Shown: positions 12,741-47,866 of the stretch, in pieces | Position numbering within the stretch: position 1 is the stretch's first letter | Layout of the letters: each line of letters begins with the position of its first letter | Origin: Prorocentrum cordatum | Lineage: Eukaryota | Direction: 5' to 3' | NCBI GenBank assembly: GCA_963575745.1 | Contig: CAUYUJ010000259.1 | Span: 558,001 to 622,000, forward strand | Length of the DNA stretch: 64,000 bases | The notes under the pieces: model-generated | What the model was told of the DNA's origin: nothing | What the model saw: only the letters and a program-made list of their open reading frames with translations | The model's database searches: none | Program-made: the position numbers and the translations under genes

Positions 12741-13534
12741 CCTCATCGATCCCATTCCAAGCCATCCATCGATTGGGGGTAATTTCTGTAGTGTAATTCT
12801 TTGCTTGTCGCCAAGATCGGCCTGTAGGGGGACGTGCCCGACCTAATGCCAAGCAGCACCCCGCCTCCTCTCGAGCAGTCGGTGCCCCCCGGCCCCTCGG
12901 GCTCGAATGGGCCAGACAACGCACGCTGTTCGAGCATGTGGTGTGGATGGAGCGCGCCTGCTCTCTGATCGACCAGTTGTTCGTGCTCGCCCGAGCCGTG
13001 CCGACGCGCCTCCTCCTCCTCCTCCTCCTCCTCCTCGTCCTCCTCCCCCTCCTCCTCCTCCTTCCCTCTCCCTTCTGGGCAAGAGCCATGGCACGCGTGT
13101 CACCCATCTTCAACTGTTAGTCCGAAGTCGGCCTGTCGGGGGACATGCCCGGCCCAACTCTAAGCAGCACCCCGCCTCCTCTCGGGGGGCCGCCCCTCTC
13201 GAGCCACCCCTTTTTCGTGCCGCGCCGCCGCCTCGGCCCCTGTGCGCGAGGGCTCCCCTCGGTACTCGATCTTCAAGCCTAGAGCCTCGACCCTCGATCC
13301 TCGATTTTCGATCCCCGAACCTTGACCCTCGAACCTCGACCTTCGATCCGCGGTTTCTGGTCCTCCTGCGCCTCCTCGGGCATCGCCCAGGGCACGCTGG
13401 CCTCCCTGCCGCAGTGCCGCAAGCGCACGGCGGCGAACCAGGGGTTGCTCAACGTTTACGCGAAGGAGCGGCCGGCCGGAGGTTCCCGCCCGGCGTGTTC
13501 GGACCAGCAGGGCTCGGAACAGCGGTTCTTTTCG

Positions 13535-13740
13535 GGGGCAACAATAGGGGGGGATAGGCACAGGAGGGGACGCATCGACCCCCAATCGCCCACTGATCGC
13601 CGAGAGGTGTCCGATAGCCCCAACCTCCCCAGGAACGTGCGGATTCACTATCGGAGGCCTATCGCCGATGTATCGGCGATGTATCGCCGATTCCAGGTCG
13701 ATGTTCCCCCCCTAGCCCTATCCTCCCCGATCGTTGCCCC
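13535..13740. mobile_element. MITE with TIRs GGGGCAAC.AT.GGGG.GGATAGG; related copy at ~14340-14645 interrupted by a TA/CT microsatellite
   Basis: The ends are reverse complements; internal sequence is shared with the second copy. Confidence 0.7.
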
Positions 13741-14841
13741 TCATCTTTGGGTTGTGGCAGGTTTGCTTGCACCGAAATGGGGAAGGGAAATGGGCGTGGG
13801 CAGGCCGGGAAAGGAATCCAGGGCTTCGCGCAAGTCGGGACTCGCTTGCACGCCTGTCCGGCCCAGCGCTTGTGGAAAAGGCGGCGGGGGGGGGGGGGCG
13901 GCCATGGAAGTAGATGCATGGGCCTCCAGGGAAGGAAAAGAGCCTGCTGCTGCTGTCCTGGCGATCTCGTCGGCCCCATCGTCAGGTGTTCTCCGCAAGG
14001 GGTGCCCGAATCGTCCAGGGTTGCCGCTGGAGGCCCGAGTGACGACCCGAAAGCGAGGCCCGCTCGCGTTGGGAAACATCACGGCGCCGGGTTCTCTGCC
14101 ATATGTTGGCTCTCGGGGGGCCCTCACCGGGCGCAGGGACCGTCCAAGAGCGACCCGCGGCGGAAAGCAGGGGCACCGTTGGGGGTCGAATTTGCCCAAA
14201 CATTTGATTTTCCCATCGAATCTACGACGATGGCATGGGATGCTCGTAAACCGATTGGAATTGTAAGTATTCGTCCGTACATTCGACGAGACAGTTGATT
14301 CCGGGGTGGATAAATTCTGTAGTCGATCCCCTACTCGAAGGGGGGGGACAGGCTCAGAGGGGGGCACATCCAACCGCCCCTTCATCGCCGATTGGGGCCT
14401 GATAGCCCACCCCTCCCAGGAGCACGCGGATTCTCTCTGTCTCTCTCTCTCTGTCTCCTGTCTCTCTCCATATATATATATATATATACATATTTGTATA
14501 ATTTCATACATATATGCATACATATACACATATACACATATATATATATATATACAGAGGTATATAACGAGGGCCTATCGCCAGTGCCTCGGAGAGGTAT
14601 CGTCGACTGCATGTCGATGTGTCCTCCCCCGAGCCGGGCTCCTCCTAATGTGGAGGGGTCGGGGGGCGCATGGGGGGCGCGGGGCTGGTGGATCCTCGGG
14701 GGGGGGGGGGCAGGGCCGGCGGACGAGGGCTCGGCGGCAGTGGGCGAGCTGGCGCCGGCGCCGGCCACACCAGGAGCGAGCAGGAACGCACGACTCGCCC
14801 CACCGACACACTCGGGACAGCACGGCCCACCGTTTTCTCCC

Positions 14842-29403: not shown

Positions 29404-29972
29404 ATGTTCACGCCAGCCTCTCTCGGCCATGGGCGCCGAGGAGCCTGCTGCCGGCGGGCGAGGTTCGAGGACGGCATCGACCGCTTCACGCTGAGGTTCG
29501 CAGACCCGATGCGGGAGGACGGCTTTGCTCACGCCCACAAGGCGCCCCTGTGCAACTACACGACGCTGGCTATGGTCGCCCTTGTCGCCTCCAGCTTCCT
29601 GGGTGGCCTGATCGCCCACAGGTTCTGGGACAACGCCCAGTACCCCACGGCGGAGGCGAGGGAGCTCAGCAGGTGGCAGCTGCGCATCGGCATGATGATG
29701 ACCACACCCTGCGCCCTCGCCCTCGGGTCTGGGATACTGCTGGCCAGGTATAATATCATCAGCACGCTTGGGTTAGAAATCATCGTCGTCTCTGCCAGCA
29801 CCTGCTACATGATAGTGATGGTCATCATCCCGAAGCACTACATGGCCCGACTCTTCGGCCACGGCGACCCCGAGGACATCTGGGGCGTGGACCTGGGCGG
29901 CACCGACGGCCAGACGGTACTGTACATCGACTGCGTGGTCACCGCCTTGCACCTGCTGCTGCCCATCCGCTG
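29404..29972 (+). CDS. Kinase gene exon 1 (N-terminus, TM helices)
   Basis: FTLRFADPMRE..., hydrophobic segments; GA donor at 29973. Confidence 0.8.
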
Positions 29973-30340
29973 GATGCCGGAAACTGGAACGTATACATTA
30001 CCAGTGGCGGGTTGTCTTTCAATCCCAGGATTTTTCGAGGGTCGTGGACGACGTCGGGGTGGTGTGGTGTATACTAGTTGTCCCGTTGTCCCGGGGAAAA
30101 CAACGCCAAAGGTATACACCAGGATCCCGCATACACCAGGATCCGTTCTCCTGTGCGAATCAATGCGGGGCCGGAAAAAGCGTCGGTGTACAGTTCGGCT
30201 CCTCAGGATGATCCTCTTCCCCATGGAGGTCATCGCCGTCCTGGCCTACACGGTGCCCGCGCTGCTGCTCGGCAGTCCTGCCATGAACATCCGAGGAAGA
30301 AACAACGGCATAGGCACAAACATTCGGAGGTCCGCTCCGA

Positions 30341-30398
<58 letters not shown>

Positions 30399-33300
30399 CC
30401 ATCACCATCACCATCAGCATCATCAGCATCATCATAAACATTATCAGCATCAGCAGCATCATCAGCATCAGCAGCATCATCAGCATCATCTTCATCATCA
30501 TCACCATCATCATCCCCATGATTATCACCATCATCATCCGCTCACCATTCCAATCCCTACGCCTGGCTATCATTCCAATCATCCTCCGCCTACATGCCCT
30601 TCCTGTGGATCGGCACTGTGCCTCCTGGCGCGCTCCGCGCGCCTCAGCAGGGGAGGTCCGGCGCCGACCTAAGAAACCCGCGTGGACCTTGGGAAGCTCA
30701 CGTTCGGCACTGTGCCTTCTGGCGCGCTCCGCGCGCCTGGGAGGGAAGGTCAGGCGCCGATCTAAGAAACCCGCGTGGACCTTGGGAAGCTCATGCTTCC
30801 CAAACCCCAGTCGCCATGATGTTTTGTTACGACCTCCACCCCCCAGTGTCGGGCCGGACGAGAGGGTCCGGACGAGAGAGCAGGATAGGGAAATCTTCCC
30901 TATCCGTCCTTTCGCACCTCCCCTCGAGGGGATAGGGACCTTCCCCTATCCTTATCCTGCCCTACTTCCCTATCCCACCCTTTTTCCCCACCCTACCCTT
31001 CCCCTACGAAATTTGCCCTGCAGGGCAAATATCGTACACCCCCCTCTGAGGGGGGTGGGGGGGGGGTCACTTGCTGCATGCAGCTGGCCTCGGCCCGGCC
31101 GCCGGGCCCACTCCTCGATAACATGGGCGCCCCTCTCGGCCCCAGGAGGCTCGAGGCGCTGGGGAGTCCAGCCACGGGTGTGCTGATCCCCCCTCTTGGA
31201 CGCCCCCCTCTTGGCCGCCCCCGATGCTGGTCGACCTAAACGGTGTGTTGGCGATTCCGTGGGCCGTAGTCGGTTTGACGACGTTTTCCAGCAGAGGCGG
31301 ATTGAAGAAAAAGCGAGGGAAAGCGACGACAACACTAAACCGAGAAACATTGTTTGCGTCGATCCCTGCTTCTGCTGCTGCTGCTCCTCCTCCTCCATGC
31401 CTTTCCCTTATGAGTACATATATATATATATATATATATACAGATCATCCCTGTCGCACCCCAGGGCCGGTCGAAAGGGCGGGCTGGGCGTTTCGCTTGA
31501 TACTTCCTCACCGTTTATGATCCTGCAGCTCAGAAATTGGCAACAGTTTCACAGATGGAGGGCGGGCCGCTTCAAAATCTGGCTCTCTCTTTCGCGCCGC
31601 GCACATCCGTTGTAAACACTTGCAAGAAGTTGAAAGATTGAGGGCAGGTCGTTTCCAAAATGTGGCTCTCGTTTCAGCGCCGCGCACATTCGTTTCAAAC
31701 ATTTCGCACACAAGTTTCACGGATTGAGGGCAAGTGGTTTTCAAAGTGTGGTTCTCGCCTCAGCGGCGCGCAAATTGGTTTGAGATAGTTGCACGAGTTC
31801 ATTGTGGTTCTCGCCTTGATGGCGCGATCATTCGTTTTGAATGTGCAAGAGGTTCACGGATTGAGCGCGGGTAGTTTTCAAACGATGGTTCTCGCTTTGG
31901 CGTTCCGCACATGGTTGTTTTACTTTTGCACCAGTATCACGGGTCGAGGGCGGTTTCTATTCAAAATTTGGTTTTCGCGTTAGTGCCGCGCACATACGTT
32001 CCAAATATTTGCAAGGGGTTAATCGGTTCTCAGAGTTGACGTACCAGGTATGGTGCGTTGTAAGGATTCCGGATTGTCAGGGCCCAGTATTTACGTTGTT
32101 CTAGGTGTTGAAATCCCAGGGGTGGTGTTTTGGTACGATTCAGGATCGCCTACACGTAACAGTCAGGTTAGCTCGTGGCGTTGAAGTTCTCAGAATGGTG
32201 TTTGGGCACGTTTCAGGACTTTCACACGCTTGTCCCCCAACGGGGCTCATCTTTCAGTGGAAATGAACCCTTGTAGGGGCCTGTGAAGAGTGAGCTAGCA
32301 GGGAGGGTGTATTCCAACATCGTTGCTGGGTCTTGAGTTTGCTCTTCTCCCCCCTCCTCCTGTTCGTCCTATCTCGTGTGCCTCGGCTTGTGAGGACCCC
32401 CCAGACGCTTGTGCCGTTCTTTTCTTCCTCCAACATGGTGCCCTACAATGTCATGGGGCTCTTCCGGTAGCAAACCGTGGGAGCCTGGTACACCCTCGTA
32501 CTCCAGTCTGTTCAGTCCAGAGTGCACTGGCGCCGACTCGCGTCTGCCAATCGATGAGACAGCGCCGGTGCAGCGCCCATGGAGCGTCGACTCCGCATCG
32601 TATGAGCGCCGATTCGCACGAGCCAACAAGACATGGCGCGGGACACCCAGGCCAAGGTCCACAGGCATCCCAGGCCGCGGTTCACAGCATGAGCTTGCTT
32701 GTTGCAGGTCGGCCTGTGCGGTGTTCCCGGTCTGCCCAGCGACGCTCCGAACCGCGACGTCATCGGGTCACGAGGGATGGCTTGAGAGGGAAGGCGTGGG
32801 ACGGGGCCAGGACGAGGACAAGTCCGTTCAAGCGCGTTTCAGAACTCTCTCACAGCGTTCCATAGCGCTCGGAGCAAGCCGCGGCGCCCGAGACATCCTA
32901 CAAAGCCGCCAGATTTCAGAGATCCTCGATGAATCCCCACGCGATGTTAGATTCGTCCTGGCTTCGTCTCAGATGTCTTGCAAGGAAAAAACACATGCTA
33001 TGTCGGCCACGCGCAGATGGGGGTAGACGGGAGGGGGGGAGGCTTCTCATAACACTCCTACTTCTTGGAAGGCGCGGGCTTTATCTATAGATGTAAGGCA
33101 GGCATCTTCTAAGAAGCAGCCTCGTTCTAAGAAACAGCTTCCCTTCCCAGCCAGGAGCCAGATTAAGGGGAGCCAGTTAGAAATTGAGCCCCGCTGCCCA
33201 AAACATGGTCGGAATCACAAAAACAGGTCTGGCGTAGCTAGTGTTTTTCGGGTGACGGCAGTTCTGGTTTGGGCCAAGCGCCGGAGGCCTCGGGGAGAGC

Positions 33301-36300
33301 TCCCCGCGTGCGGAGGCGCACGCGGGCCGCGATCGCCAAGACGTCCCTTGGCGGGTGGGGGAGGAGGGAGAGGGAGGAGGAGGAGGGAGGAGGGAGGAGG
33401 AAGGGGAGGAGGAGAAGCGCGTAGAGGAGGAGGAGGAGGAGGAGGAGGAGGAGGAGGAGGAGGGAGGAGGTGGAGGAGGAGGAGGAGGAGGAGGAGGAGG
33501 AGGGGAGGAGGAGGAGGGGGAGGAGGGTTGGCAGTCCCCCGGTACACATCGCTAGACCAGGTCCCACCCAAGAGCCAGTCCTGCCAACGCCCGACCCCGA
33601 GCGCGCCGCCGGAGACGGCTTGGGAGGCTCCCACGGGTTGCCGCAGAAGGCTCCTGCTGCTCACGGTCTTCGCGGCCATAGGGCGGCGGTCCTTCGAGAG
33701 GCAGGAGCCCAGTGTCGTGTAACCCATCCCCATCCCCATCCCCATCCCCATCCCCACCATCCCCACCACCCCAGATATGCGCCTCGAAGCTCGAAGGGAA
33801 CAGCCGATGACCCCATCAAGGGAGATAAATCGGCCAGTGGTGCCCAGGCCACGCCCGTGGGGATAGTCTAGGCCTTCTAGATGGGGTCGGAGTAGATGGG
33901 GTCGGAGGATCGCGCCGCATCGGCGATACATCGCCGATGCGGCTCGATGCGGAGCCCGATTTCTCCACCGACGTCGCCGATGCGTCGCCGACTTCGGCGA
34001 TGCATCGTCGGTGCATCGCCGATGCATCGCCGATGCATCGCTGATGCATCGCCGATGTATCGCCGATGCAGCGCGATCCTCCGACCCCATCTACTCCGAT
34101 CCAATCTAGGAGGCCTCTAGATAGGGATCGGTTAAACGATGCTCAGGAGCGCCTGCTGTTCGCGGGGCTCCTGCTGGAGAAGCAGATGCGTTTCCAGGCC
34201 GAGTTCGAGCTGTCGAAGCTGGGGAAGCTGGGCAGCCGCGAGGCGCGGAGGAGGAGCAGCTTCCAGAGGAGGAGGGGGCTCCCAGACTTCGAACCGCCAA
34301 AGGACTTTCGTTTTGGTCCCCCCCCCTTGTTCTCTTCGGCGGTGACTGGGACTGGTCCTAAAACCTCCTCCTCCCTCCCTCCCTCCCTCCCTCCCTCCCT
34401 TACTCCCTCCCTCAGTCCCTCCCTCCCTCCCCCCCCCTCCCTCCCTCCCCCTCTCCCGTGTTTCTGGCACCGAGGTTTGCTGCCGCAATCCTGGGTAGCC
34501 GTCCCGCCCCCACAAGAGGAGGCAGACTGGTGGTCTGAGGGAGTCGAGGTTTTCGAAGATAACTGCTTCGGCGTGGGCTCTCCGTTGGCCCCCCTGTGCC
34601 TTTTCGGGGACGCGAGCGGGGGCGAAGATACTTCCGATCCCAGGCTCCGCAGAGTAGGGTGTGGAATTGCACAGTATTCTGACATTTCAGATAATATGCA
34701 GCTTGTTGCTTCTGTTTGGGGAGGCCTCCCTGGGCCCGTCCAGACAGTTGCCAGGGGTGAACTTTTCAGTTTCTTATCAGCGCTGATCGGTGCTGATGGT
34801 GTCACGCTCTATACCACAGATAATTCCAGTGTGTGCTCAGGATGGTATTGCGGGCGGGCCTTCGCCCCAGAGGGGGAGAACGCGGACCTTTGGTATCAGG
34901 TAGGTCAGGTGCTCAGACGAAAACCGACCTTATCCTGCACGGTCCTTTTTGTTCACTCCCACCAGGAGGCCCGAGACGTACTCCAGGGTAAAGCACCTCT
35001 GTATTTGACGGTAGGTAATGCAGCTGCTGATAAGTTGGCCGAGGCAGCGGCTCGTTTAGTACGCATCCCAGCCTCTGATAGATCGAAGGTTTTCTTGAAT
35101 GAGAAGATGGCTTTCGCCGTCCGCATGCGTATTTTACTGGCCACAGTCGAGACTTTAAAAGCCGAGGCCGCCCTGGCGGCCGAAGAGCCCCGAGGAACCC
35201 GTGTCAGGAATCCAGGGCCCAGGCCATTAGCGCCTCTGGTTTGTAAAGAGTTTTCGACCCTGCATACGCTGTCTGAAAACGGTCTTTCTTGTTTGAAGTG
35301 TAGGAGCTCCACCACTAAAGGTATGCGCAAGTTTTGGTTGGAAACCCCATGCTTTGACCTGAGGGCTATAGATGGCGTTTTGCTCAGACCGCCCCCCCGT
35401 TGCAGGGTGCACATCTGTGGGGGGTGGGCTGACGACAGTCACACATTACAGTTTCACGCTGGGCTGGGGATTTGGTTCTGTGGCACTTGTGGAAGTTTTG
35501 CGGCCCAACAGTTGGCCCAACTCGGAAAGAAGTGCGACGGCAGAGCCACAGGTAATCGTGCTGATTATTTAAAGAATATTGAACGGGGGATCTGGCCTAA
35601 AGCTTATAGCAAAGCTGACAAGGCCAGAAGAGCGGCTCGTTCTCTTTAATCGTCATCGTAACCGACACAGTCGCAATATCCGTAACTCCGTAACTCCCTC
35701 CCCCTTTCCCTCCCTCCATCTCCTCCTCCTCCTCCTCCTCCTCCTCTTTCCTCCTCTTTCCTCCTCCTTCTCCCCCCACATCTGGGGCCATGGCGGTCGT
35801 CTGCTTGCAGACTGCAGCCGCCAGGGCTTTTTTGATGATGGTCCATCAATCCCTCCTCCTCCTCCTCCTCCTCCTTCTGGACTTCTCCCCCCTAAGGAAT
35901 GGCATGAGAAGAAGATGGAGGAGGAGGAGGAGGAGGAGCAGGAGGAGGAGGAGGAGGGAAGGAGGAACAGGAGGAAGAGGAGGAGGAGGAAGGAGGAGAA
36001 GCAGGAGGAAGAGGAGGAGGAAGGAAGGGGATGAGGAGGAGGATAAGCCGCGGAACAAAATAATTAGCTACCACCTATTGTTGGGAACCCAGTCCTTCGA
36101 CAAGGCAGCCGGAATAATGTTAATTGTTTATCCTCTATTTGGGGGGGGGGTCAAGATAATTTTTCAGGGGTAGTCAAAGGATGAAAGGGCTCCCACACAG
36201 CTTCTTGTCGTTCTTTATCATGTTGGTGGGGCCTTCTGGGAGGCCGTCGTCGCCACCGCTGGATGCGCCCCACAGTTCTGGTCAGAGCGCAACCTTGGAG

Positions 36301-39300
36301 CTGTCCTGTGAGTGGGGGTATCGGTAGCTCCTGGCTTCCGCAGACATGCTCGCGCCGTGGAAAACAACAGCCAGGCGCGAGGTGTCTGACCGGGTTCGGC
36401 ATCCAGGGGCCTTCGCAGGACCTCGGGACGGTCAGCGAAAGCGACTCGCGATGAAGCGCCGGTCACGGACACGGGGTCGGGATTTCTGGGGACCGCGCAC
36501 TGCAAGCACCAGGACGTTGCATGCCTGGTGTGCCGATGTCGCTGCTCGTTCTGGAGAGGCCCCGTCTCCAGGCCCTCAAATGGGGTTGAAGCAGACGAGG
36601 TCTTCGGATCGCGCCGCATCGCCAAGGCATCGGCGATGCGGCGCCGATGCATCGCCGACGTCGCCGATGCATCGCCGACGTATGGGCGACGTGTCGGCGA
36701 TACGGCGCGTTCCTCGGACCTCATCCTCTCGGATCCCCTTTGGGATGTCTCCACCGTCGCCGTGGCCGTCCTCCCTCCCAGGTCCTGCCCAGAGCGCACC
36801 CGGTGGCAGAGGGTCCGGGGAGCAGCGGGGTGCGTCGGCACCGACGTGGTTTCCCCCAAAGAAGGCCGCGGTGGTGTCGGACCGCGGCTCCGACGAGGTG
36901 TCGTGCCCGGGGACGACCATCCGGGTGTTGTTCGGGGTTTCGGGGGCGGCAAAGAGGGGGGTGATGAGTAGGGGTGGGTGAATAGCATGGCACGGGCCAT
37001 GGTATTTCCCCAGATTTCATGGCGCCTCTTCTTATTTCAATACGTCCCTGGCCACCCCCCTGGGCCGCGCACATGCCGCCGGCCATGATTTGCGCCCCTC
37101 CCCCTCTTGGACGCCCCCCTCTTGGCCGCCCCCGAGCATTGTCTTTACCAGCCTGGAGCAAATCCCTATCCCTATGGTTGGTATCATCTTACCTCGATGC
37201 CGATCTTGAGGAGTCCCTCAGTTTCTGATGGCGCATACCTATGATTATGATTTTCCAACCTACTTTAGCTTTGATCACCAGAAAGAATTTCGGGCACCGG
37301 AAAAGTACCGAAACTCTAGTGTGTTCGCCTTTCGGGCCCTGGGAGACGCTCGTCCGACGTTGTTTCGACATTGTTTCGACACTTTCTTGGGTGCTCGAAA
37401 TTCTTTCTGGGATGTGGTCCTTAAGTACGATGGGAGCAACATCACCTTCTGATTGGTATCATCTTTCCTCGATGCCGATCTGAAGGATTCCATCAGTTTC
37501 TGAGGGCGCATCCCTCACATGGTCTACATGGTCTTTGGCTTGTCAGTCTCAGGGGTAAGGATATGTTCGGGGCTGGTTACTGTCCTGGTCAAGGGTGCCC
37601 CTGGTTTTTGGCTCTCTTTTGAAGCTCTCGGCTCTCAGGGCCTTCTTGGTTGGTGGCCTCCAAACGGTGTGATTACCAATCCGTTTGGGAAGTCAGTGGA
37701 GCTTCGGGGTCACAACACGAATTTGGGAAGCGGGGTGTTCTCCGAGGATGTCTCGGGCGGTTGGGGCCCCCAGAGTCCCAAGACCGTGCGGTGACGGACC
37801 GCGCGGTGAGGACGTTGGAGATTCCGAGATCGCCACGCGGTCCGCCACCACACGATTTTGGGACGCCCCATATTGGCCTCGTGAGGGGTGCGTTGGAGGC
37901 CATCTGGGCATCTATGGGGATCCTGGGGACACCTTTGGGCCAGGACCACTCCAAGCAACGCCCGAGCCATGAGCGCGGCGGCCTTCGACGGTGGCGCGGG
38001 GCATGCGTCCCTGGACCAGATCCGCTCCATAGGCCAGCGGGAGCACTGGCTCATCTCGGAGGAGAAAACATGCATACACATATACTTTCGGAGCTCCGCT
38101 ACCCGTCCCTCGTTTTTCGCTCCTTCGGTGCCTCATGGTATGCCCTCGTCGCCGCGGCACGATTCGCCTCGAAATCCTGGTCCAAGGGCACCCAAGGAGA
38201 GTCCCGCAGAGTACCAGTATCAGTACCAGCCTCGGATCGGCGCTGGGGCCCCCCTTGGCGGCGCCTCCGTCTCGCCCTCGGTGCGGTCCCCGCGTGCCAA
38301 AGGAGGGGTGGCCCAGCGCCGACCCGAGAGATCCAGCGCGCAGCTCCGAGAGTGTATGTTTGTGCCATGGTTTGTTCCTCCATCATCGGCAGCGGGGAGG
38401 TGGAGCTCTTGGCTGACAGGGTCCTGGGCGTCGGCGGCTTCGGCATCGTCGCCGCTGGCCTGTACCACAACACCCTCGTGGCGGTGAAGGCGCCGAAGCA
38501 GGACATCCTGAGGCTGGCCCGACCAAAACGTTGCTCTGGCAATGTCGTGGATAGCTTCCGTCTACTTGCTCTTTCCGCTCTGGGGCACCCCATTTGCCAG
38601 CCAAGACTTGGGAGTTGCGCCAAAGCGCTCGGCAACCGGTCGGACCGTTTTCGTCCTCGAACGCCCCGAACACGCAAACGGGACGCACGCGAAAAGAGCG
38701 CCGGTTTGGTCGCCCCCCCGCGCGAGGCGGGGCGCCATGGGCTCGAGCCTGCCCGAGCTCTGCAACGAGCTGAGGGTCCTGCGGCGCATCCGCCATTGAT
38801 GGGCCTGTCCTCCACCACCACCACCATGAGTTGGAGGGGGGAAGAAGGAGGAGGAGGAGGACGACTAGGAGGAGGAGGAGGAGGTGGAGGAGGACCCCCT
38901 CCCCCCTCCAACTTGTGGTGGTGGTGGCAAACGGGCCCATCAGCCATCCCAACATCGCCTTCCTGTACGGGGCGTGCATGGACGCGGCCCTCAGCAAGCT
39001 GAGCCTGGTGCTCGAGTTCGTGGACGGCGTGCCCCTGGGCGCGTTCGTCAGCGGCATGCACCCGCACGCGGAGGGTCCAGAGGCCAGGGGCCCGCCGGCC
39101 AGCGCCTCCGCGCGGTGCCTCATCGTGTCCGACATCCTGAACGTGCTCCGCTACCTCCACTCGAGGCTCAAGCAGTGGCGAAGCGTCTCGGCTCGCCTAC
39201 AGGCCTACCAAAGGAACTGTTCTAAGACCCTTTTGTGGTCTCAGCGACGTGCTCTCAGAACATTTCTGGCTGGGAAAGGCTTGTTTTAGCACAGAAGGCT

Positions 39301-40025
39301 TGCGTTCTGAGAACATTGTGTTTTTCTTAGGACATGTTGGGGTTCTAAGAGCATTCCGTGGTAGGCCTGTAGACATGCCGGGACGGTCGGTCCCTGCTCA
39401 AGAGGCAGCCTGTCATAGTCCACGGAGACCTGAAGGACTCCAACGTCTTCGTGGAGGAGCGGCGCGGCAGGACACCGCTTTTGTTTGTCTCCCTTGGCGA
39501 TGCCCCGGGCGTGCCTCACAGTGGTACGGGGGGATGGGGGGGAGGGCGCCCGCCACGTCACGGTTCCCGCCAGCGGCGTCTGGGAGTGCTCATGCCAACT
39601 CCCAGACGGGGCCGGCGCGAGTCGCGAGGTGACAGGAGGGGTGCGTGAGGCGGGGCGGGTCACGGCAGTGATCGCGAGCATCGCAGGATCCTGCAGGATC
39701 CTGCAGGATCTCGCAGGATCCTGCAAGGCCCGACGGACCCGGGCTTGGGTTGACCCGGGCCAGTGCGTCCCCGGGAGTGATAGAACAACGGGCTCTATAG
39801 GGGGGGCCAGATCTGGTACCACGCCAAGCTGCTCGACTTCGGGCTCTCGCGCCTCGTCACCCGGCGTGCCGTGCCCCTCGGCGGCACGCTGCGCTGGATG
39901 GCGCCCGAGCTGCTCACGGGGGTGGCCGTCCCCCCCGCCGCGGCCGCCGACCTGTACTCTTTCGGGCTGCTGGCCTACTTCATCGTGACCGGGCGCCGTC
40001 CTTTCGAGGGCGCGAGCAGGGACAG
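29404..40025 (+). CDS. Multi-pass membrane protein kinase (TKL/Raf-like domain), at least 12 exons; 3' exons (subdomains X-XI) not securely located
   Basis: The spliced product has ~6 hydrophobic helices, then RFQAEFELS, EHWLIGSGEV, LGVGGFG, VAVK, NELRVLRRIRHPNI, HGDLKDSN, DFG, GTLRWMAPE, ADLYSFG, TGRRPF. All exon phases are consistent with no stops. Start codon uncertain. Confidence 0.9.
30207..30290 (+). CDS. Kinase gene exon 2 (TM helix)
   Basis: cag|G ATG ATC CTC.. = MILFPMEVIAVLAYTVPALLLGSPAMN. Confidence 0.85.
30343..30540. repeat. (CAT)n microsatellite inside intron 2
   Basis: Direct inspection. Confidence 0.97.
30610..30793. repeat. ~92-bp tandem duplication
   Basis: tcggcactgtgcc...ctaagaaacccgcgtggaccttgggaagctca occurs twice. 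Confidence 0.9.
31480..32260 (+). repeat. AT-richer dispersed repeat, copy nested in intron 2
   Basis: Homologous to 26765-27250. Confidence 0.75.
32437..32457 (+). CDS. Kinase gene exon 3 (21-nt micro-exon, MVPYNVMG)
   Basis: Lies exactly between the right TIR/direct repeat of intron 2 and the left direct repeat/TIR of intron 3; keeps the frame. Confidence 0.8.
33650..33704 (+). CDS. Kinase gene exon 4 (LLLLTVFAAIGRRSFERQ)
   Basis: AG|G acceptor, GA donor. Confidence 0.85.
33870..34116. mobile_element. Palindromic MITE with AGGCCT termini and CATCGCCGATG core; copies at 36570-36750 and 45649-46124
   Basis: ~45-bp TIR aggccttctagatggggtcggagtagatggggtcggaggatcgcgc. Confidence 0.85.
34147..34242 (+). 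CDS. Kinase gene exon 5 (ERLLFAGLLLEKQMRFQAEFELSK..); 3' end at 34242 (GC donor) or 34218
   Basis: Direct repeat CAGGAGC at the acceptor; coiled-coil-like sequence. Confidence 0.8.
34457..35700 (+). mobile_element. 5'-truncated LINE 3' end encoding RNase H and C-terminal Cys motifs, inside intron 5
   Basis: FGDASGG..DPRLRR, QTVARGEL, TDN, NADLW, VHSH, GNAAADKLA; open frame to TAA 35649; visibly lower GC than its flanks. Confidence 0.88.
36865..36914 (+). CDS. Kinase gene exon 6 (AAVVSDRGSDEVSCPGT)
   Basis: AAG|G acceptor; GA donor with direct repeat GACCA shared with 37944. Confidence 0.7.
36942..37132. mobile_element. MITE with TIR GGGGCGGC.AAGAGGGGG; related pieces at ~31190-31222, ~41577-41660 and ~46125-46310
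   Basis: The ends are reverse complements. Confidence 0.7.
37655..37868 (+). repeat. Dispersed ~215-bp repeat (second copy 45664-45880, nested in an AGGCCT MITE)
   Basis: Shared gttctccgaggatgtc.cgggcgg.tgggg..gtccca..ccgtg.ggtgacggacc..caccacacg.ttttgggac. Confidence 0.8.
37944..38055 (+). CDS. Kinase gene exon 7 (..SLDQIRSIGQREHWLI)
   Basis: cag|G acceptor; pre-kinase WxI motif. Confidence 0.85.
38388..38512 (+). CDS. Kinase gene exon 8 (subdomains I-II)
   Basis: VLGVGGFGIV..VAVK. Confidence 0.92.
38727..38796 (+). CDS. Kinase gene exon 9 (subdomain III, alpha-C Glu)
   Basis: ELCNELRVLRRIRH; GC-AG intron 38513-38726 with direct repeat GAGGC. Confidence 0.9.
38948..39165 (+). CDS. Kinase gene exon 10 (subdomains IV-VIa)
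   Basis: PNIAFLYG..LVLEFVDG..LRYLHS. Confidence 0.92.
39405..39470 (+). CDS. Kinase gene exon 11 (catalytic loop)
   Basis: IVHGDLKDSNVFV; GC-AG intron 39166-39404. Confidence 0.92.
39801..40025 (+). CDS. Kinase gene exon 12 (subdomains VII-IX); 3' boundary approximate
   Basis: AKLLDFGLSR..GTLRWMAPE..ADLYSFG..TGRRPF; GA-AG intron 39471-39800. Confidence 0.92.
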
Positions 40026-40319
40026 GGTGCCAGTCCTCAAGATTGGTTTGTATGCCACACCCTCCCCACCCCGGTCAGATTCCACCACCCGCGGCCACAG
40101 TCAGTATTATACAACCACCACGCCCCATGCAGATACGTCTAGACGCTTCGCGTAACCCCACCAGCCTGTCGCGGCCCGACTAGTGTTCGGGCGGCTTTCG
40201 ACCTGCTTCGCGAGCCCGCAGACCAAAAAAGTAACCCATCAGCCCATCCAGAAACGATGCCCAAGGGAATTGCCTCGATCAGGGAAGTGGGCGGCACACA
40301 GAGGAAGGGTCCCCCAGTG

Positions 40320-43300
40320 GAGGCCTCTTTGAGCGTCTTGGGGGCCTCTGGGCGGTCCAGGACGCTTGTAGAGCGTCTTGGGTGCCTCGGAAAGCTTCTT
40401 GGGGCCTCTTGGAGGTTTCTGGGGAGCCTCTTGGAGGCCGTCTAGGCGCCTCTTGGGGCCTCTTAGGGCCTCTTGGGGCCGTCTGGGCGCCTCTTGGGGT
40501 CCTCTTGGGAGCCTTGGGAGCGCTCTTGGAGCCTTCTTGGGCCATCTTGGAACCATCTTGAGACCTCGGATGGCCATCGGAAGCGAAAAGGCGAGACAGC
40601 CAAACATTAGCCTGGCGACGGGCCCTACCGCAAGTATAAATCTAATCTTCGCCCGCGCTCCCTATGGGGCCACGAACCGTGTGAGGGGCGTGCCGACATG
40701 CGCGGCGGGGCACACAACGCGAGCGAAGACGGTAGGTCTGTGTGCGAGAGACTGAGAGCGCGTTTGTCTGATTGTGGATGGGTTTGCGCGCGTGAATCTA
40801 CGTGCGTAAAAAATCGACGCCCATGTCGGCGCGCCTCTCACGAGGATCGCGCCTGTTTCCTTCCCGTTATTTAATCGCTTCGCTCATTCCGCCGGCCCGT
40901 ATTGTGCCATCGCAGGCGTTTGCTTGCGCGTTCGTGGCCTCTTGGAGCCTCGGTGGGGCCGTTTGGGGCCTCTTGGCGCCTCTTTTTAGGCCTCTTGGAG
41001 AACTCGGGAGGCCTCCAGGGGGCCTCCTGAGCTCTCGTGACGGTCTCTTGGGGGGCTTTCGGCGGGCTCTTGGCGGTATTTGTTGGTCCTCTTGGGGCCT
41101 GGGGCCTGACGTTGTTGGTCCTCTTGGGGCCTCACGGGAGCTTATTGGGGCGTCTTGGGGGTGTCTTGGAGAGTCTCTTGGGGCCTCTTTCGGGGTCCTG
41201 GGCGCCTTCTGGGGCGGAGGGCTCGATTTTTCAGTTCTCGGTTTCCTTCTTGAGCCCCTCTTGGGCCTGTGAGGACCCGCTGTTCAAGATGCACATCGCG
41301 GGGGCGACTAAAGACAGGCGTGGTGATGCTTCGTTGTTCTTGGCATCGTTCTATCAGGGGCACTTCAAGGACCTGCCGAAAGAGGCTGCCCGAGAAGTGC
41401 GAGATCCTGTGTCCGTCCACAGCCCTGCGGCTGACGAGACCTGCCGTGCTTGCCGCGGGGAGCCGTGCACGAGCGGTGTGGCGCCAGGACGTCCGACTTG
41501 CCCGAGGGTCGGCGGACGCCTCGCCGACCGCCTCTGGCCTGATATCAAGATCGATGGGCCACGAGGCGATACGCGCGGGCGGCAGAGAGGGGGGTGATGA
41601 CTAGGGGGACGTCATGGCGGGGGCCATGATATCTCCCCAGATTTCGTGGCGCCTCTTCTGATTTCACTGCGTCCCTGGATCTCCCCCTAGGCCGCGTCTT
41701 GGGGCCTCTTGGTCCGCCTTGGGCAGCACTTGGGCCGTCTGGGAGGCGCTCTTGGGCCGCTCCGGGGCCGTCTTGGGAGCCTCGTGGGCCGTCTTGGAGC
41801 AGTCTTGAAGGCCTCTTGAGCCCTCTTGGAGCGTCCGGAAGCGAAAAGGCCAGAACGCCAAAAAACATCGAACAAAACCAATGAAAATCAACGATGTTGG
41901 CAACTTGGGGCCCTCTTCGGAGGCCTCTTGGAAGGCCCTTGGAGCGTCTTGGAGGCCTCTTGGGCTGTCTTGGGGCCATCTGGGGCGTCTTCGGGCGATC
42001 GTTGGCCGTCTCGGGCCTCTCTTGGACCGTCTAGAAAGCTTCTCGGGGCCCTTTTGGACCGATCTGGAGCCCTCTTGGACTCCGAAACAGAACTCCGGCA
42101 TCTCTGACCCGACCTTGCCGGGGTACTTTTCGCCCGGGGACCCCCAGGGGCCGCCCCGCGCGCGCGAACTAGAAATATTGTTAACCAGGCGCCGGAGATC
42201 TTAGCACGCCCTGGCCCGTTGGGCCGGCGAATTTTTCTCCTTGTTTGTCCGTGCGCGCCCACGTCCAAGGGTGCGGGCGCGGCGCCGCACGGAGCCCCCG
42301 CGACTCGCGCAGGTCGCCCCGAAGGGGTCCCGGCGACGCGCGCGGGTCGTCCGCTGCGCGGGGCAGAGCGAGCGAGCAGGCTGGCTCCCGCCTGGGATGC
42401 GCGGCCCGAAAGCGGCCTCAACACGTCGAATACGACGAAACACTTCCAGAAACCGAAAGTCGCTGCTATGCGAACTCTTCCACTGGGCCGCCACACGATT
42501 TCCGCCACAGAGACCTTAGACGGAGCTCCCTATGGGGACACGAAACGTACGAGGGGCGCAATGGGGCCACGAAGTGTGTGATGGGGTGTGCCAGAATGGG
42601 TCGGCGGCGCCATGCGGGCTGCGCCAGTGTGACCGTCGGTGGAGCTACCTATGGGGCCACGAAGCGTGTGAGGGGTGTGCCAAAATGGGGCGGCGGCGCC
42701 ATGCGGGCTGCGCCTTTAGGGCCTTAGGTGGAATTTCATTATGGGGCCACGAAACGCTGTACTGAGTGGATGAAACGCAGGGAGGAGGTTGGGTGGGGGA
42801 GGAGGAAAAAGGAAGGAGGAGGAGGAGGAGGACGAACACGCGGGGACCGTCTCTTCAAAACGAGGACCCAACACCACAGGATGGTAGGGACAAACATTGA
42901 TATTCGCAAGGTGTTGGACAGATGTTGGCCTGTTCGGGGCCTCCTGGGGGGGGTTCTCTGGCCACTTGGAGCCGTCTTGGAACGGTCTTGGGGCCTCTTG
43001 GAGCATCGTGGGGGCAATCTTGAGGCATCTTCGGATCGATTGGGCCATCTTGGGGGTCATCCTGGGCTCCCCCAGGCGCTCCCCCCACCCCCCAGGAAAC
43101 CAACACGTGGCCAAACCAATCGTAAAATCAGTGATTCTTTGGTTTACGCCGCGCCGCCGGCCCCTTGGGGTTCCTGGTAGGTCTCTCGGGGGCCTCCTGG
43201 CAGCACTTTGAGACCTTTTGGGGGCCGTTTTGGGGCCGCTTTTGGGCCTCTGGCCCCTTGGGTGCTTCTTGGGGGCTGGATCTCGCGCCGCGCCTCTCGG

Positions 43301-44040
43301 GGGCCTCTGGAAGGCAGGTTTGGAGCCACTTGGGAGCAGTTTCGGAGCTTCTGGGGGTCTTTTTGGGGCCTCCTGGGTGCCTTTTGGGGGCTCCTTGGGG
43401 CGTTCTGGGGGCCTCTTGGGAACCTCTGGCGAGCCTCTTGGGGCACTTTTGGGGCCCCGCCCCCTTGGGCTCCTGGGGGCGGAAAGCTAGATGTTTTGAA
43501 TGTTTGGTCGCCCTCTGGGGCCCCTCTTGGTGCTGTCTTGGAGCCCTCTTGGGCCGTCTTGGGGACCTCTTGGGCCGTCTTGGGGCTACATTGGGCCGTC
43601 TTGGGGCCGTCTCGGGGGCCTCTTGGGGCTGTCTTCGGGGCCTCTTGGGCCGTCTTGGAACGTCGGGAAGCCGAAAAGGCGAAAAGGCAAAAAACCACAA
43701 AAAAAACACAATGGAAAATCAACCATTTTAGCCCCTCGGGGCCCTCTTGGGGGTCTTGTTTGGGACCTCTGGGGCTGTCTTGGAGGCCTCTTGGCCCGTC
43801 TTGGGGCCATCTAGGGCGTCTTGGAACGCTCGTTTAGCGTCCCCGGGCCCTCGTGGGCCGCCTTGGAACCCTCTTGGGGCCTTCTTGGCCCATCTTTGAG
43901 CCCTCTTGGGCCCGGAAGAGCCCGTGACGCGCTCGTCGGGCCCCCCCCCCCCCCAAATCGACCGGGCCGGGCTCCCGGGGGAGGGGTTTGGGGAGGGGGG
44001 GGGCATCTCACGCGCCGATGATCCCCAAGGGGCCGGCGGA
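40320..44040. repeat. Blocks of degenerate GGGCCTCTTGG/GGCCGTCTTGG satellite-like dispersed repeat, with interspersed elements
   Basis: 10-11-bp periodic motif; a conserved tail ccaaatcgaccgg.ccgggctcccgggg..catctcac.cgccgatga.ccccaagggg at 43950-44040 recurs at 61430-61520. Confidence 0.85.
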
Positions 44041-46514: not shown

Positions 46515-46854
46515 GGGGACGACGGAGACGACGATTGACGGAGACGACGAGGAGACGACGGAGACGGAGACGACGACGGAAACGACGAGGAGACGACGGA
46601 GACGACACGGTGACGACGGCGACGAACGGAACAGCATCATCAACACGCCGACAGGGTCGGCGGATATCTCTTCTTGCGGAACGAATTCAACCTTTTAAAC
46701 CCAGTTTGCGAGCGAGGAGGAGGCGGAGGCGGAGGCGGAGGCGAAGGCGGCGGAGGAGCAGGAAGAGGAGGAGGAGGAGGCGGAGGAGGAGGAGGACGAG
46801 GAGGACGAGGATGAGGAGGAGGAGGAGGAGGAGGAGGAGGAGGAGGAGGAGGGG

Positions 46855-46896
<42 letters not shown>

Positions 46897-47756
46897 GAGG
46901 AGGACGAGGAGGAGGAGGAGGAGGAGGAGGAGAAAGAGGAGGAGGAGAAGGAGGACGAGGACGAGGACGAGGAGAAGGAAAAGGAGGACGAGGAGGAGAA
47001 AGATGATGGTGCTGATGCTGATGATGATGCTGATGCTGATGATGACGATGATGATGCTGATGATGATGCTGATGATGCTGATGCTGATGCTGATGTGGAT
47101 GATGATGATGATGATGCTGCTGACGATGATGATTACGCTGGTTATGATGCTGGTGATGCTGATGTTGATGATGATGCTGACGATGCTGCTGATGATGCTG
47201 ATGCTGATGATGATGCTGCTGATGCTGATGATACTGCTGCTGATGATGATGCTGATGATTATGACGATGATGATGCTGATGATGCTGATGCTGCTGATGA
47301 TGATGCTGGTGATGATGATGCTGCTGATGATGATGATGATGATGCTGCTAATGATGATGCTGATGATGATGACGATGATGACGATGATGATGACGATGCA
47401 GCTGCTGATGATGATGCTGATTATGATGCTGCTGATGATTCTGATGATGATGCTGATGATTATGCTGATGCTGCTGATGATCATGCTGATGATGATGATG
47501 ATGCTGCTAATGATGATGATGATGATGATGATGATGACGATGATGATGATGATGCTGATGTTGCTGCTGATGCTGATGCTGTTGCTGATGAGGATGATGC
47601 TGATGATGCTGATGATGCTGCTGCTGATGATGATGCTGATGATACTGCTGCTGATGATGATGATGATGCCCACGACGACGATGATGCTGATGATGCTGAT
47701 GATGCTGATGGTGCTGATGCTGATGATGATGCTGATGCTGATGCTGATGATGGTGG

Positions 47757-47809
<53 letters not shown>

Positions 47810-47810
47810 C

Positions 47811-47866
<56 letters not shown>

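What the first reader, a model, noticed from the sequence alone, without database searches (positions are those of the whole stretch)
38056..38387. 332-nt non-canonical insert with ~42-bp TIR and TCATC duplication just before the kinase domain
Seen: TCATC|TCGGAGGAGAAAACATGCATACACATATACTTTCGGAGCTCCGC ... GCGCAGCTCCGAGAGTGTATGTTTGTGCCATGGTTTGTTCCTCCA|TCATC. No register has a GT/GC/GA donor or an AG acceptor. Precise removal gives WLIGSGEV, matching the Raf/TKL W-x-I-x-x-x-E-hydrophobic spacing. A canonical GA-AG alternative (GAG|GA .. GAG|GTG) would give WLISEV, two residues short.
Basis: partly seen in the sequence, partly recalled or inferred. Interest (0 to 1): 0.75.

Follow-up and report, generated by a model that had tools for sequence, protein, structure and literature searches.

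The report
Transposon intron without splice signals
A 332-base transposon-like insert in a kinase gene of the bloom-forming dinoflagellate Prorocentrum cordatum is cut out of the RNA exactly, although it has none of the usual intron end signals, and introns of this kind break the public gene model.

Summary
Bases 38056-38387 are a 332-nt insert flanked by TCATC (38051-55 and 38383-87). It has an imperfect 44-nt terminal inverted repeat (0 of 300 shuffles score as well). None of the six possible registers gives G[T/C/A]..AG.

RNA decides the reading. A 487-nt contig with no mismatch, present in three runs (one a polyA RNA library), and one stranded raw read join 38050 to 38383. This gives WLIGSGEV. 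All 5 of 5 paralogues read W-L-I-A-x-G-E-V. The GA..AG alternative (WLISEV) was not among the 15 of 49 joints shown.

The host is P. cordatum: exon 1 is 100% identical to a public 236-aa model. My 558-aa model has 11 introns. Seven allow G[C/A]..AG. Four do not (direct repeats AACAT, CCAT, TCATC, GCCAT), and all four repeats contain CAT. One of these four has the same termini as the finding, so the two belong to one element family, and the public model derails there.

The closest known kind is the Amoebophrya introner element. I found no report of such introns in a core dinoflagellate. The excision machinery is not known.

The parts
38051..38055 (+). Left copy of the 5-nt direct repeat TCATC (target-site-duplication-like); it encodes part of L-I of WLI
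38056..38099 (+). Left arm of the terminal inverted repeat (purine-rich start TCGGAGGAG...)
   Evidence: (0 of 300 shuffles)
38100..38337 (+). Interior of the element. It holds a second inverted repeat (38231-38255 / 38304-38328, 25 nt, 88%). Part of the interior (up to about 38269) also occurs in other RNA molecules. One open frame of 104 codons (38070-38381) has no Pfam match.
   Evidence: pair I4; loose ends at 38269; 2-nt gap at 38254
38338..38382 (+). Right arm of the terminal inverted repeat (ends ...GTTCCTCCA)
38383..38387 (+). Right copy of the direct repeat TCATC; one copy stays in the mRNA
37967..38050 (+). Upstream exon (…MSAAAFDGG…REHWL…), joined to 38383 in RNA
   Evidence: record 8: 37967-38050 = contig 119-202, 38383-38509 = contig 203-329, 0 other letters
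38383..38509 (+). Downstream exon: (I)GSGEVELL…LGVGGFG…VAVK, the start of the kinase domain
30286..32431 (+). Sister element and intron E2>E2b: 2146 nt, direct repeat AACAT, no G[TCA]..AG register. Both termini are homologous to those of the finding. It is followed by the 25-nt micro-exon 32432-32456 (MVPYNVMGL). The junction is inferred from paralogues, not from RNA.
   Evidence: end pairing 1 of 300 controls
36917..37966 (+). Intron i0: 1050 nt, direct repeat CCAT, no canonical register. It is RNA-verified, its ends pair only weakly, and it holds nested repeats.
   Evidence: 62 of 300 shuffles; 30 of 300
38792..38942 (+). Intron i3: 151 nt, direct repeat GCCAT, 46-nt inverted repeat directly beside the repeat, no canonical register, RNA-verified
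   Evidence: I1, I2; 0 of 300
38510..38723 (+). Intron i2: 214 nt, direct repeat GAGGC, one register GC..AG, 18-nt inverted repeat, RNA-verified
   Evidence: (3 of 300)
39163..39401 (+). Intron i4: 239 nt, direct repeat GAGGC, one register GC..AG, inverted repeat of about 60 nt, RNA-verified. The element 39168-39401 is multi-copy in RNA with other flanks.
   Evidence: joint; loose ends at 39167/39168 and 39401/39402; 0 of 300
29404..40030 (+). Host gene as far as modelled: 12 exons and 11 introns give a 558-aa open frame (membrane-spanning N-terminal part plus TKL-type kinase domain). The gene runs on to at least about 41570.
   Evidence: Pkinase hit on exon 39799-40029; RNA pieces 41431-41570
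13532..13743 (.). Another small inverted-repeat element in the window with a 5-nt flanking repeat (TCTTT) and similar tips (TCGGGGG…CCCCTCA). It is not shown to be an intron.

Best explanation
The insert is a small non-autonomous DNA-transposon relic (MITE-like: 5-bp target-site duplication TCATC, 44-nt imperfect terminal inverted repeat, too short to encode a transposase). It sits in the coding sequence of a Prorocentrum cordatum TKL-type kinase gene and now acts as an intron. It is removed from the transcript exactly at the duplicated pentamer, leaving one copy and restoring the frame (WLI|GSGEVELL), although no register offers a GT/GC/GA..AG pair.

Shown: the element's anatomy; the exact junction in RNA on the + strand; the same behaviour at two more RNA-verified introns of the gene (CCAT, GCCAT) and at a family-mate inferred from paralogues (AACAT).

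Inferred: in the pre-mRNA the inverted repeat folds into a long hairpin that brings the two repeat copies side by side. The cut and rejoining are done by the spliceosome working with relaxed end recognition. The CAT shared by all four odd boundaries is either part of what is recognised or the mark of which insertions survive in coding sequence. My odds, given removal at the RNA level, are about 60% spliceosome and 40% another machinery.
For: Anatomy: (0 of 300 shuffles or controls reach the end pairing).

RNA. The joint 38050>38383 (332 nt, 5 ambiguous letters) lies in a zero-mismatch 487-nt contig in 3 of 3 contig runs laid, and in 1 raw read of X13. The same contig also lacks i0, i2 and i3. 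The raw junction reads all have the first mate on the - strand (4, 1, 4, 7 and 2 reads for i0 to i4), as expected for a + strand RNA in a stranded library. The runs hold only 0.13-0.17 of the words of 37001-42000. By my count of the model, exons make up about 0.19 of that stretch, so these runs behave as spliced RNA and not as genome DNA.

Protein: the spliced frame is open for 558 aa and collinear with 5 of 5 paralogues, without a gap at any of the 6 junctions compared.

Transposon origin: both termini recur at the ends of intron E2>E2b. Across the window, 5 of 24 inverted-repeat pairs carry a 5-nt flanking repeat, against 1 of 96 displaced controls. Element i4 has loose ends exactly at its tips in all four runs, so it is multi-copy.

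For the spliceosome: elements of the same build (5-nt repeat plus inverted repeat) at GAGGC targets in the same gene fit GC..AG. This is the NAGGH pattern described for dinoflagellate introners (Roy et al. preprint, part 2). i0 is removed although its ends pair no better than 30 of 300 controls. Non-canonical introns of Fritillaria are reported as spliceosomal (review PMC11282704, passages). All four odd repeats share CAT; the chance that four such repeats share any trinucleotide is about 0.001.
Against: Only 1 raw read covers this particular joint. Contigs cannot show rare isoforms, and 34 of 49 joints were not printed.

No DNA run was laid, so an uninterrupted DNA twin or somatic excision is not excluded directly.

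The hairpin may not be needed: i0 is non-canonical with weak end pairing (62 of 300 and 30 of 300).

Mismatches in the arms show no preference for G.U pairs on the RNA strand (8 sense-compatible against 5 antisense-compatible transitions in i1 to i4), so there is no sign of selection on the RNA structure itself.

No lariat, branch point or snRNA evidence is available. For the comparable Amoebophrya and euglenid introns the authors argue for a mechanism distinct from ordinary splicing.

Only two or three family copies were seen, all in this window. The metagenome scan gave one chance hit.
Confidence: 0.5

Rival explanations
1. Same element and same RNA-level precise removal, but by a spliceosome-independent, structure-guided pathway. 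An endonuclease and ligase, or a second dedicated splicing machine, would recognise the base of the hairpin, as has been proposed for euglenid nonconventional introns and for Amoebophrya introner elements.
For: No register has any spliceosomal dinucleotide pair. 3 of the 4 non-canonical introns have end pairing beyond nearly all controls (0, 0 and 1 of 300), and the stem starts directly beside the repeat. Euglenid nonconventional introns leave as full-length circles after conventional splicing (review PMC11282704, passages). [quoted passage not shown]
Against: i0 is removed without a significant hairpin. Look-alike elements at GAGGC targets fit ordinary GC..AG. The shared CAT points to a sequence cue rather than a pure shape cue. 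No candidate enzyme was examined.
Confidence: 0.3
2. The window copy is a dead gene copy riddled with transposon insertions that are never removed, and the RNA comes from an identical uninterrupted twin (paralogue, allele or retrocopy).
For: An empty target site looks exactly like precise excision (one repeat copy). P. cordatum is reported to be rich in duplicated genes (PMC10666404, passages). No DNA run was laid.
Against: The contigs match the exons with 0 other letters over 487, 217 and 412/408 nt while lacking at least five inserts. A twin would need several insertions and no substitution. No public protein of 71 aa or more holds exon 38388-38507 at more than 84% identity. The same molecule also lacks ordinary GC..AG introns of this locus. 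In Amoebophrya more than 60% of RNA-supported introns are of this non-canonical sort (PMC7789003), so such introns are removed in a related lineage. A retrocopy would itself descend from an RNA spliced at these sites.
Confidence: 0.08
3. The element is excised from DNA in some or all vegetative nuclei (programmed or transposase-driven precise excision, as with ciliate internal eliminated sequences), and the RNA is copied from the repaired DNA.
For: The inverted repeat plus target duplication is a transposase substrate. Precise loss leaving one repeat copy is what some cut-and-paste systems produce (established knowledge; not tested here).
Against: The insert-bearing form is what the genome assembly holds. 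No germline and soma split is known in dinoflagellates (my own knowledge). Several unrelated elements (i0, i1, i3) would all need precise excision. No DNA data were examined.
Confidence: 0.04
4. Ordinary dinoflagellate GA..AG splicing at 38062-38399, giving WLISEV.
For: The GA donor, the AG acceptor and the following G are there, and the frame is kept. WLISEVEL still fits the W-x-I-x-x-x-E-hydrophobic motif.
Against: This joint is not among the 15 joints printed, whereas the 332-nt joint is in 3 of 3 contig runs and 1 raw read. 5 of 5 paralogues have two more residues here.
Confidence: 0.02

Closest known systems
Introner elements / non-canonical introns of Amoebophrya sp. A25 and A120 (Farhat et al. 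2021, PMC7789003)
   Same: RNA-supported introns without GT-AG or GC/GA-AG ends. Inverted repeats pair the 5' and 3' ends into a hairpin. 3-5-nt direct repeats overlap the exon/intron borders. There is no transposase inside. The elements are repeated, and they are mixed with canonical introns in 'heterogeneous' genes. The A120 mean length of 240 nt is similar to the lengths here.
   Different: The host is a free-living core dinoflagellate, not a syndinean parasite: window G+C is about 0.54-0.69 per 2 kb, against 47.8% and 51.2% for A25 and A120. The inverted repeat is 44 nt, not 8-20. The repeat starts TCGG.., not TAT (A120) or TTA (A25). The odd borders here all share CAT, whereas the paper reports no clear dinucleotide signature. 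The loss of U1 snRNA noted in Amoebophrya could not be examined here.
Dinoflagellate introners / ILEs of Polarella glacialis and Symbiodiniaceae (Roy et al., preprint 10.1101/2020.10.14.339549; I read parts 1-2 of 4)
   Same: DNA-transposon-derived introns with inverted repeats and 3-8-nt target duplications in core dinoflagellates. A 5-nt NAGGH duplication that supplies both splice sites fits introns i2 and i4 (GAGGC) of this gene.
   Different: In what I read, every described class ends up with GH..AG borders drawn from the duplication or the element. The finding (TCATC) and i0, i3 and E2>E2b have none.
Nonconventional introns of euglenids (as summarised in PMC11282704)
   Same: Non-canonical borders, ends paired at the RNA level, repeats like target duplications at the junctions, and a presumed MITE origin.
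   Different: The usual CAG/CTG pairing at +4..+6 / -8..-6 is absent in 6 of 6 registers. The stem here is far longer. The lineage is unrelated. Whether the excised product is a circle is unknown here.
Introner elements annotated in the P. cordatum genome paper (Dougan et al. 2023, PMC10666404)
   Same: Same species, and the same search pattern (inverted repeat of 8-20 nt plus direct repeat of 3-5 nt within 30 bases of intron ends). They were found in 2.4% of annotated introns.
   Different: Those introns come from gene models built with tools that accept only GT, GC or GA donors (24.7 + 51.4 + 23.8 = 99.9% in their Table 2). Border-less introns like this one could not be called. At this locus the public model is truncated.

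Membership tests
Amoebophrya-type introner element (non-canonical intron with IR + DR; Farhat et al. 2021) | Intron supported by RNA junctions | tested here: met
   joint 38050>38383 in zero-mismatch contigs of 3 of 3 contig runs and in 1 raw read.
Amoebophrya-type introner element (non-canonical intron with IR + DR; Farhat et al. 2021) | Borders differ from GT-AG (and from GC/GA-AG) | tested here: met
   0 of 6 registers has a G[TCA] donor or an AG acceptor.
Amoebophrya-type introner element (non-canonical intron with IR + DR; Farhat et al. 2021) | 8-20-nt inverted repeat pairing the 5' and 3' ends of the intron | tested here: met
   the ends pair over 44 columns (35 matches), which is longer than the stated 8-20 nt; 0 of 300 shuffles reach this.
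Amoebophrya-type introner element (non-canonical intron with IR + DR; Farhat et al. 2021) | 3-5-nt direct repeat overlapping the exon/intron borders | tested here: met
   TCATC, 5 nt; 'both = 5' at the joint.
Amoebophrya-type introner element (non-canonical intron with IR + DR; Farhat et al. 2021) | Member of a repeated family within the genome | tested here: inconclusive
   One clear family-mate (E2>E2b, both termini) and one loose relative (13532-13743), all inside the window. No genome is held. The metagenome scan gave 1 chance hit.
Amoebophrya-type introner element (non-canonical intron with IR + DR; Farhat et al. 2021) | Host is Amoebophrya (strain-specific families; U1 snRNA not detected) | tested here: not met
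   Exon 1 is 100% identical to a protein named Prorocentrum cordatum. G+C is far above that of A25/A120. U1 is not testable without the genome.
Dinoflagellate introner / ILE (Roy et al.) | Inverted repeat plus target-site duplication of fixed length | tested here: met
Dinoflagellate introner / ILE (Roy et al.) | GH..AG splice sites recruited from the duplication, the element or the flank | tested here: not met
   for this intron. The feature is met by i2, i4 and i5 of the same gene.
Euglenid nonconventional intron | Short paired motif near the ends (usually CAG at +4..+6 with CTG at -8..-6) | tested here: not met
   absent in 6 of 6 registers. The motif is as given in PMC11282704.
Euglenid nonconventional intron | Excised as a full-length circular RNA after conventional splicing | not testable with these tools
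   Needs circular-RNA or RNase R data.
U12-type (AT-AC) intron | Conserved 5' site ([AG]TATCC) and branch site (TCCTTRAY) near the 3' end (motifs recalled from my own knowledge) | tested here: not met
   neither motif is in any of the 4 non-canonical introns. An AT start is possible in all 4, but the ends are AC, CC, TC and CC.
MITE (non-autonomous TIR DNA transposon) | Terminal inverted repeats, target-site duplication, small size, no transposase | tested here: met
   The element is 327 nt. Its one open frame of 104 codons has no Pfam hit.
MITE (non-autonomous TIR DNA transposon) | Many copies, and a cognate autonomous element | not testable with these tools
   No genome is held.
Protein kinase (Pfam PF00069 / PF07714) for the host gene | Match above the gathering score; catalytic motifs in order | tested here: met
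   exon 39799-40029 scores 43.5 bits on Pkinase (cut-off 31.7). 3 of the 4 kinase exons scanned singly were too short to score. GxGxxG, VAVK, HGDLKDSN, DFG and APE are read in the spliced frame. All 13 relatives returned other than P0014, the public model of this locus itself, are called kinases by a source or have precomputed kinase Pfam domains.

The most novel reading that the evidence does not exclude
Core dinoflagellates, not only the parasite Amoebophrya, have a way to cut transposon insertions out of mRNA at their target-site duplications without any GH..AG signal. It may be cued by a hairpin plus a short CAT-containing repeat. Such introns would be common (4 of 11 in this gene) and systematically invisible to current dinoflagellate gene annotation. 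This would point to an old, lineage-wide tolerance mechanism for transposons in coding sequence, one that can be studied in a culturable, axenic species with existing multi-omics data.
Probability: 0.35. Interest if true: 0.85.

Novelty: new member of a known kind. Interest (0 to 1): 0.63.

Why it matters
Three things would follow if this holds.

(1) Reach of the phenomenon. It would move border-less, hairpin-ended transposon introns from one parasitic lineage into a free-living, bloom-forming core dinoflagellate that otherwise uses normal GH..AG introns. That bears on whether the Amoebophrya state is a peculiarity of parasites that lack U1 or a wider dinoflagellate capacity.

(2) Annotation. 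P. cordatum gene models were built with GT/GC/GA donors only. At this locus the public model stops after 236 aa, just where the first border-less intron starts, and the kinase domain is missing from it. If 4 of 11 is anywhere near typical, many models are truncated or frame-shifted.

(3) Testability. P. cordatum is cultured axenically, and deep RNA and DNA data exist. So the open question of how such introns are removed (lariat or circle; spliceosome or not) becomes testable.

Tried and rejected
- Whole-genome search: no genome is held for the window.
- Rfam on the whole window: 0 matches.
- blastn of the insert against the window found no full second copy, only a weak left-arm hit at 30290-30336. 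That hit later proved to be the family-mate.
- My first ungapped seed-and-extend scan for inverted repeat plus direct repeat was too strict. It missed i1, i3 and i4 and returned 3 unrelated pairs. I replaced it with a tiled blastn scan with displaced controls.
- Metagenome scan with a degenerate arm pattern: 1 locus, AT-rich and unrelated, a chance match.
- Test for RNA-strand-specific G.U pairs in the arms: 8 against 5, no bias.
- A regex search for the missing micro-exon found nothing. It was found instead through the right arm of the element.
- Pfam on single short exons: 3 of 4 kinase exons gave no hit at E <= 0.01.
- Canonical GA..AG reading, U12-type reading and the euglenid end motif: all rejected.
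- Amoebophrya as host: rejected on G+C and on protein names.
- Earlier notes of this scan: nothing on this genome, these words or this sequence.
- Not seen: Additional File 3 (tables) of PMC10666404 (only 2 supplementary files were held as text), parts 3-4 of the Roy preprint, and its final Current Biology version. These could hold statements about non-GH..AG introns that I did not see.
- Literature searches listed no paper that, by title, abstract or the passages I read, reports non-GH..AG introns in Prorocentrum or another core dinoflagellate. Table 1 of PMC7789003 does list 9.32% 'other' splice sites for Fugacium kawagutii, without comment.
Full report
**What is there.** Bases 38051-38055 and 38383-38387 are both TCATC. 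Between the two copies lie 327 nt, so removing one copy with them takes out 332 nt. The ends of this stretch are an imperfect inverted repeat.
- The repeat finder reports an ungapped 28-nt core (38072-38099 / 38338-38365, 82%).
- A gapped alignment extends it to 44 columns with 35 matches, starting 2 nt inside the pentamer.
- 0 of 300 dinucleotide shuffles of the insert reach its score (39, against a mean of 12.5 and a maximum of 24).
- As RNA the region folds at -164.3 kcal/mol (z = -5.13; 0 of 100 shuffles as good).
- The two 65-nt ends pair at -64.2 kcal/mol, better than 300 of 300 control partners drawn from the window.
- The six registers allowed by the pentamer read TC..CA, CA..AT, AT..TC, TC..CA, CT..AT and TC..TC. 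None has a GT/GC/GA donor or an AG acceptor.

**What the RNA says.** I searched for runs holding 37001-42000 and laid four of them on 36001-44000.
- A 487-nt contig without a single differing letter appears in X1, X2 and X4 (X4 is a polyA RNA-Seq library).
- It runs from 36916 to 37967, from 38050 to 38383, from 38509 to 38724 and from 38791 to 38943.
- In X2 the pieces 37967-38050 and 38383-38509 occupy contig positions 119-202 and 203-329, so nothing lies between them.
- The joint at the finding skips 332 nt with 5 ambiguous letters, exactly the TCATC.
- The stranded raw-read run X13 (about 12% read) has 4, 1, 4, 7 and 2 junction reads for the five listed introns. All have the first mate on the - strand, as expected for a + strand mRNA.
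- The runs hold only 0.13-0.17 of the sampled words of the 5-kb stretch. By my count of the model, exons make up about 0.19 of it, so these runs behave as spliced RNA and not as genomic DNA.
- The alternative GA..AG joint (38061>38400) is not among the 15 joints printed. 34 joints were not shown, so a rare isoform cannot be excluded.

**What the relatives say.** The exon after the insert finds five proteins at 73-84% identity. Four are named Prorocentrum cordatum by their source.
- All five read W-L-I-A-x-G-E-V at this place.
- In a MAFFT alignment the spliced translation is collinear with all five, with no gap at any of the six junctions compared (66-72% identity over about 280 residues).
- WLISEV would be two residues short.
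The motif argument alone was therefore not decisive; the paralogues and the RNA are.

**Whose gene it is, and the public model.** The first large exon (29464-29976) is 100% identical to a 236-aa 'unnamed protein product [Prorocentrum cordatum]'. The window's G+C (0.54-0.69 per 2 kb) fits that species (59.7% genome mean, PMC10666404). It does not fit Amoebophrya A25 or A120 (47.8% and 51.2%, PMC7789003 Table 1).

The public model follows my exons 1 and 2. It then reads on into the next intron (…SPAMNI-RGRNNGI), takes a GC..AG pair into the wrong frame and stops. No public protein of 71 aa or more contains the kinase exon 38388-38507 at more than 84% identity. The annotation pipeline accepted only GT, GC and GA donors, which sum to 99.9% in the paper's Table 2.

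**The gene and its introns.** I combined tblastn with the closest paralogue, the RNA joints and a search for the partner of the inverted-repeat arm at 30292. This gave a model from the ATG at 29404 to 40030: 12 exons, 11 introns and 558 codons without a stop. It includes a 25-nt micro-exon (32432-32456, MVPYNVMGL) that all paralogues possess.

Every intron has a 3-7-nt repeat across its borders.
- Seven have one register with G[C/A]..AG: GGATG, GGCTC, CAGGAGC, AGGC, GAGGC, GAGGC and AGG.
- Four have none: E2>E2b (AACAT, 2146 nt), i0 (CCAT, 1050 nt), the finding i1 (TCATC, 332 nt) and i3 (GCCAT, 151 nt).

Support for the junctions differs.
- i0 to i4 are set by printed RNA joints.
- For i5 and E4>E5 no joint was among those printed. 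They rest on where zero-mismatch contig pieces start (39799 and 36863), the frame and the paralogues.
- E1>E2 agrees with the public model.
- E2>E2b, E2b>E3 and E3>E4 rest on paralogue collinearity only.

**Transposon nature.**
- The finding's left and right termini recur at the two ends of intron E2>E2b: left …CATC|CGAGGAAGAAAC…TTCGGAGGTCCGCT, right …TTGTGCCGTTCTTTTCTTCCTCCA|ACAT. The two are copies of one family, in the same orientation in one gene.
- A third small element at 13532-13743 has similar tips and a TCTTT duplication.
- Across the window, 5 of 24 non-low-complexity inverted-repeat pairs (span 80-1600 nt) carry a 5-nt flanking repeat. Only 1 of 96 displaced controls does.
- Element i4 is clearly multi-copy. 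In all four runs, contigs or reads match it from its first base (39167/39168) to its last (39401/39402) and then run on into differing sequence (loose ends).
- i0 holds nested copies of other window repeats.

**How it probably works.**
- Shown: precise loss from a + strand RNA at a duplicated pentamer; a long potential hairpin whose stem begins next to the pentamers; the same behaviour at other introns of the gene.
- Inferred: the removal is an RNA event, and the hairpin helps by bringing the borders together. End pairing is beyond nearly all controls in 3 of the 4 border-less introns (0, 0 and 1 of 300). It is not in i0 (30 of 300). It is also strong in two of the seven canonical ones (i4 0 of 300; E2b>E3 1 of 300).
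- No selection on the RNA structure is visible. Transition mismatches in the arms show no preference for G.U on the RNA strand (8 against 5).
- All four border-less repeats contain CAT. The chance that four such repeats drawn from this coding sequence share any trinucleotide is about 0.001. Three other small elements in the window that are not known to be in coding sequence have repeats without CAT (TCTTT, CAGA, CGCCG).
- This suggests either a recognition cue or survival of only those coding insertions that can be removed. I could not separate the two.

I lean to the spliceosome with relaxed end recognition. Look-alike elements at GAGGC targets in the same gene fit ordinary GC..AG, i0 needs no hairpin, and there is a Fritillaria precedent in the review read. 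A separate structure-guided pathway, as argued for euglenids and Amoebophrya, remains a serious rival.

**Rivals that would make it ordinary.** An uninterrupted twin gene as the source of the RNA would need several insertions in the window copy and no substitution over more than 1,100 exon bases. No such public protein exists. This rival is not excluded without DNA reads. DNA-level excision and assembly error are unsupported but also untested.

**Comparison with what is known.**
- The anatomy (RNA-supported, border-less, inverted repeat plus a 3-5-nt direct repeat, repeated, mixed with canonical introns) is that of the Amoebophrya introner elements (PMC7789003; sections 5 and 11 and passages read). 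The differences are a much longer repeat, different termini and a different host.
- The introners described for core dinoflagellates all use GH..AG in what I read (Roy et al. preprint, parts 1-2 of 4). i2 and i4 fit the 5-nt NAGGH pattern described there, but the finding does not.
- Euglenid nonconventional introns are alike in principle, but their end motif is absent.
- U12-type signals are absent.
- The P. cordatum genome paper reports introner elements in 2.4% of its annotated introns, all of them canonical by construction.
- Five literature searches listed no paper that, by title, abstract or the passages I read, reports border-less introns in Prorocentrum or another core dinoflagellate. 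I did not see that paper's supplementary tables or the final version of Roy et al.

**Verdict.** The thing is a new member, in a new host lineage, of a known and still mechanistically unexplained kind of intron. It comes with direct RNA support, a family-mate in the same gene, a shared CAT in the boundary repeat that I found mentioned in none of the papers I read, and a visible cost to the public annotation.

Noticed in passing
window 29404-33676: The public P. cordatum protein for this locus (236 aa) follows exons 1-2, reads on into the border-less intron at 30291, then uses a GC..AG pair into the wrong frame and stops. The 25-nt micro-exon 32432-32456 and the whole kinase domain are missing from it.
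   Followed up: yes
window 39168-39401: The element inside intron i4 is multi-copy in RNA. In all four runs, contigs or reads match it tip to tip and then continue into differing flanks. Shorter variants appear as internal 'joints' (39186-39199 > 39375-39376).
   Followed up: partly
window 38231-38328: A second inverted repeat (25 nt, 88%) lies inside the finding's insert. Reads from elsewhere match up to about 38269 and carry a 2-nt deletion at 38254, so a smaller repeat may be nested in it.
   Followed up: no
window 52372-57707: Long + strand open frames have a weak DUF6570 hit (E 8e-4, below the cut-off) and a PIF1-like helicase hit (E 3e-14). Together this looks like a Helitron-type transposon gene.
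   Followed up: no
window 36941-37069, 41574-41696, 46190-46307: A repeat of about 125 nt (79-81% alike) lies inside intron i0 and twice more downstream. A 212-nt stretch of i0 (37657-37868) matches the inverted-repeat element 45661-45882, which has a CAGA duplication.
   Followed up: partly
window 40300-40560, 40930-41250, 41700-42050: Degenerate tandem-like stretches rich in GGGCCTCTTGG-type units (they read LGASWGLLGPLG… in one frame) lie between the last kinase exons modelled and the RNA-covered piece 41431-41570. One 174-nt RNA contig (40998-41171) matches here without mismatch in X1 only.
   Followed up: no
window 30340-30560, 33720-33760, 38838-38895, 45000-48000: Long simple repeats ((CAT)n, (CCCCAT)n, (GGAGGA)n) lie inside introns and between genes. 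They fill much of the 2146-nt family-mate of the finding.
   Followed up: no
window 40031-41430: The exon or exons that should encode the roughly 20 residues between …PFEGASRDRV and …PAADETCRAC… (paralogues: …LKRLRRGQPPSLSWP…) were not located.
   Followed up: partly
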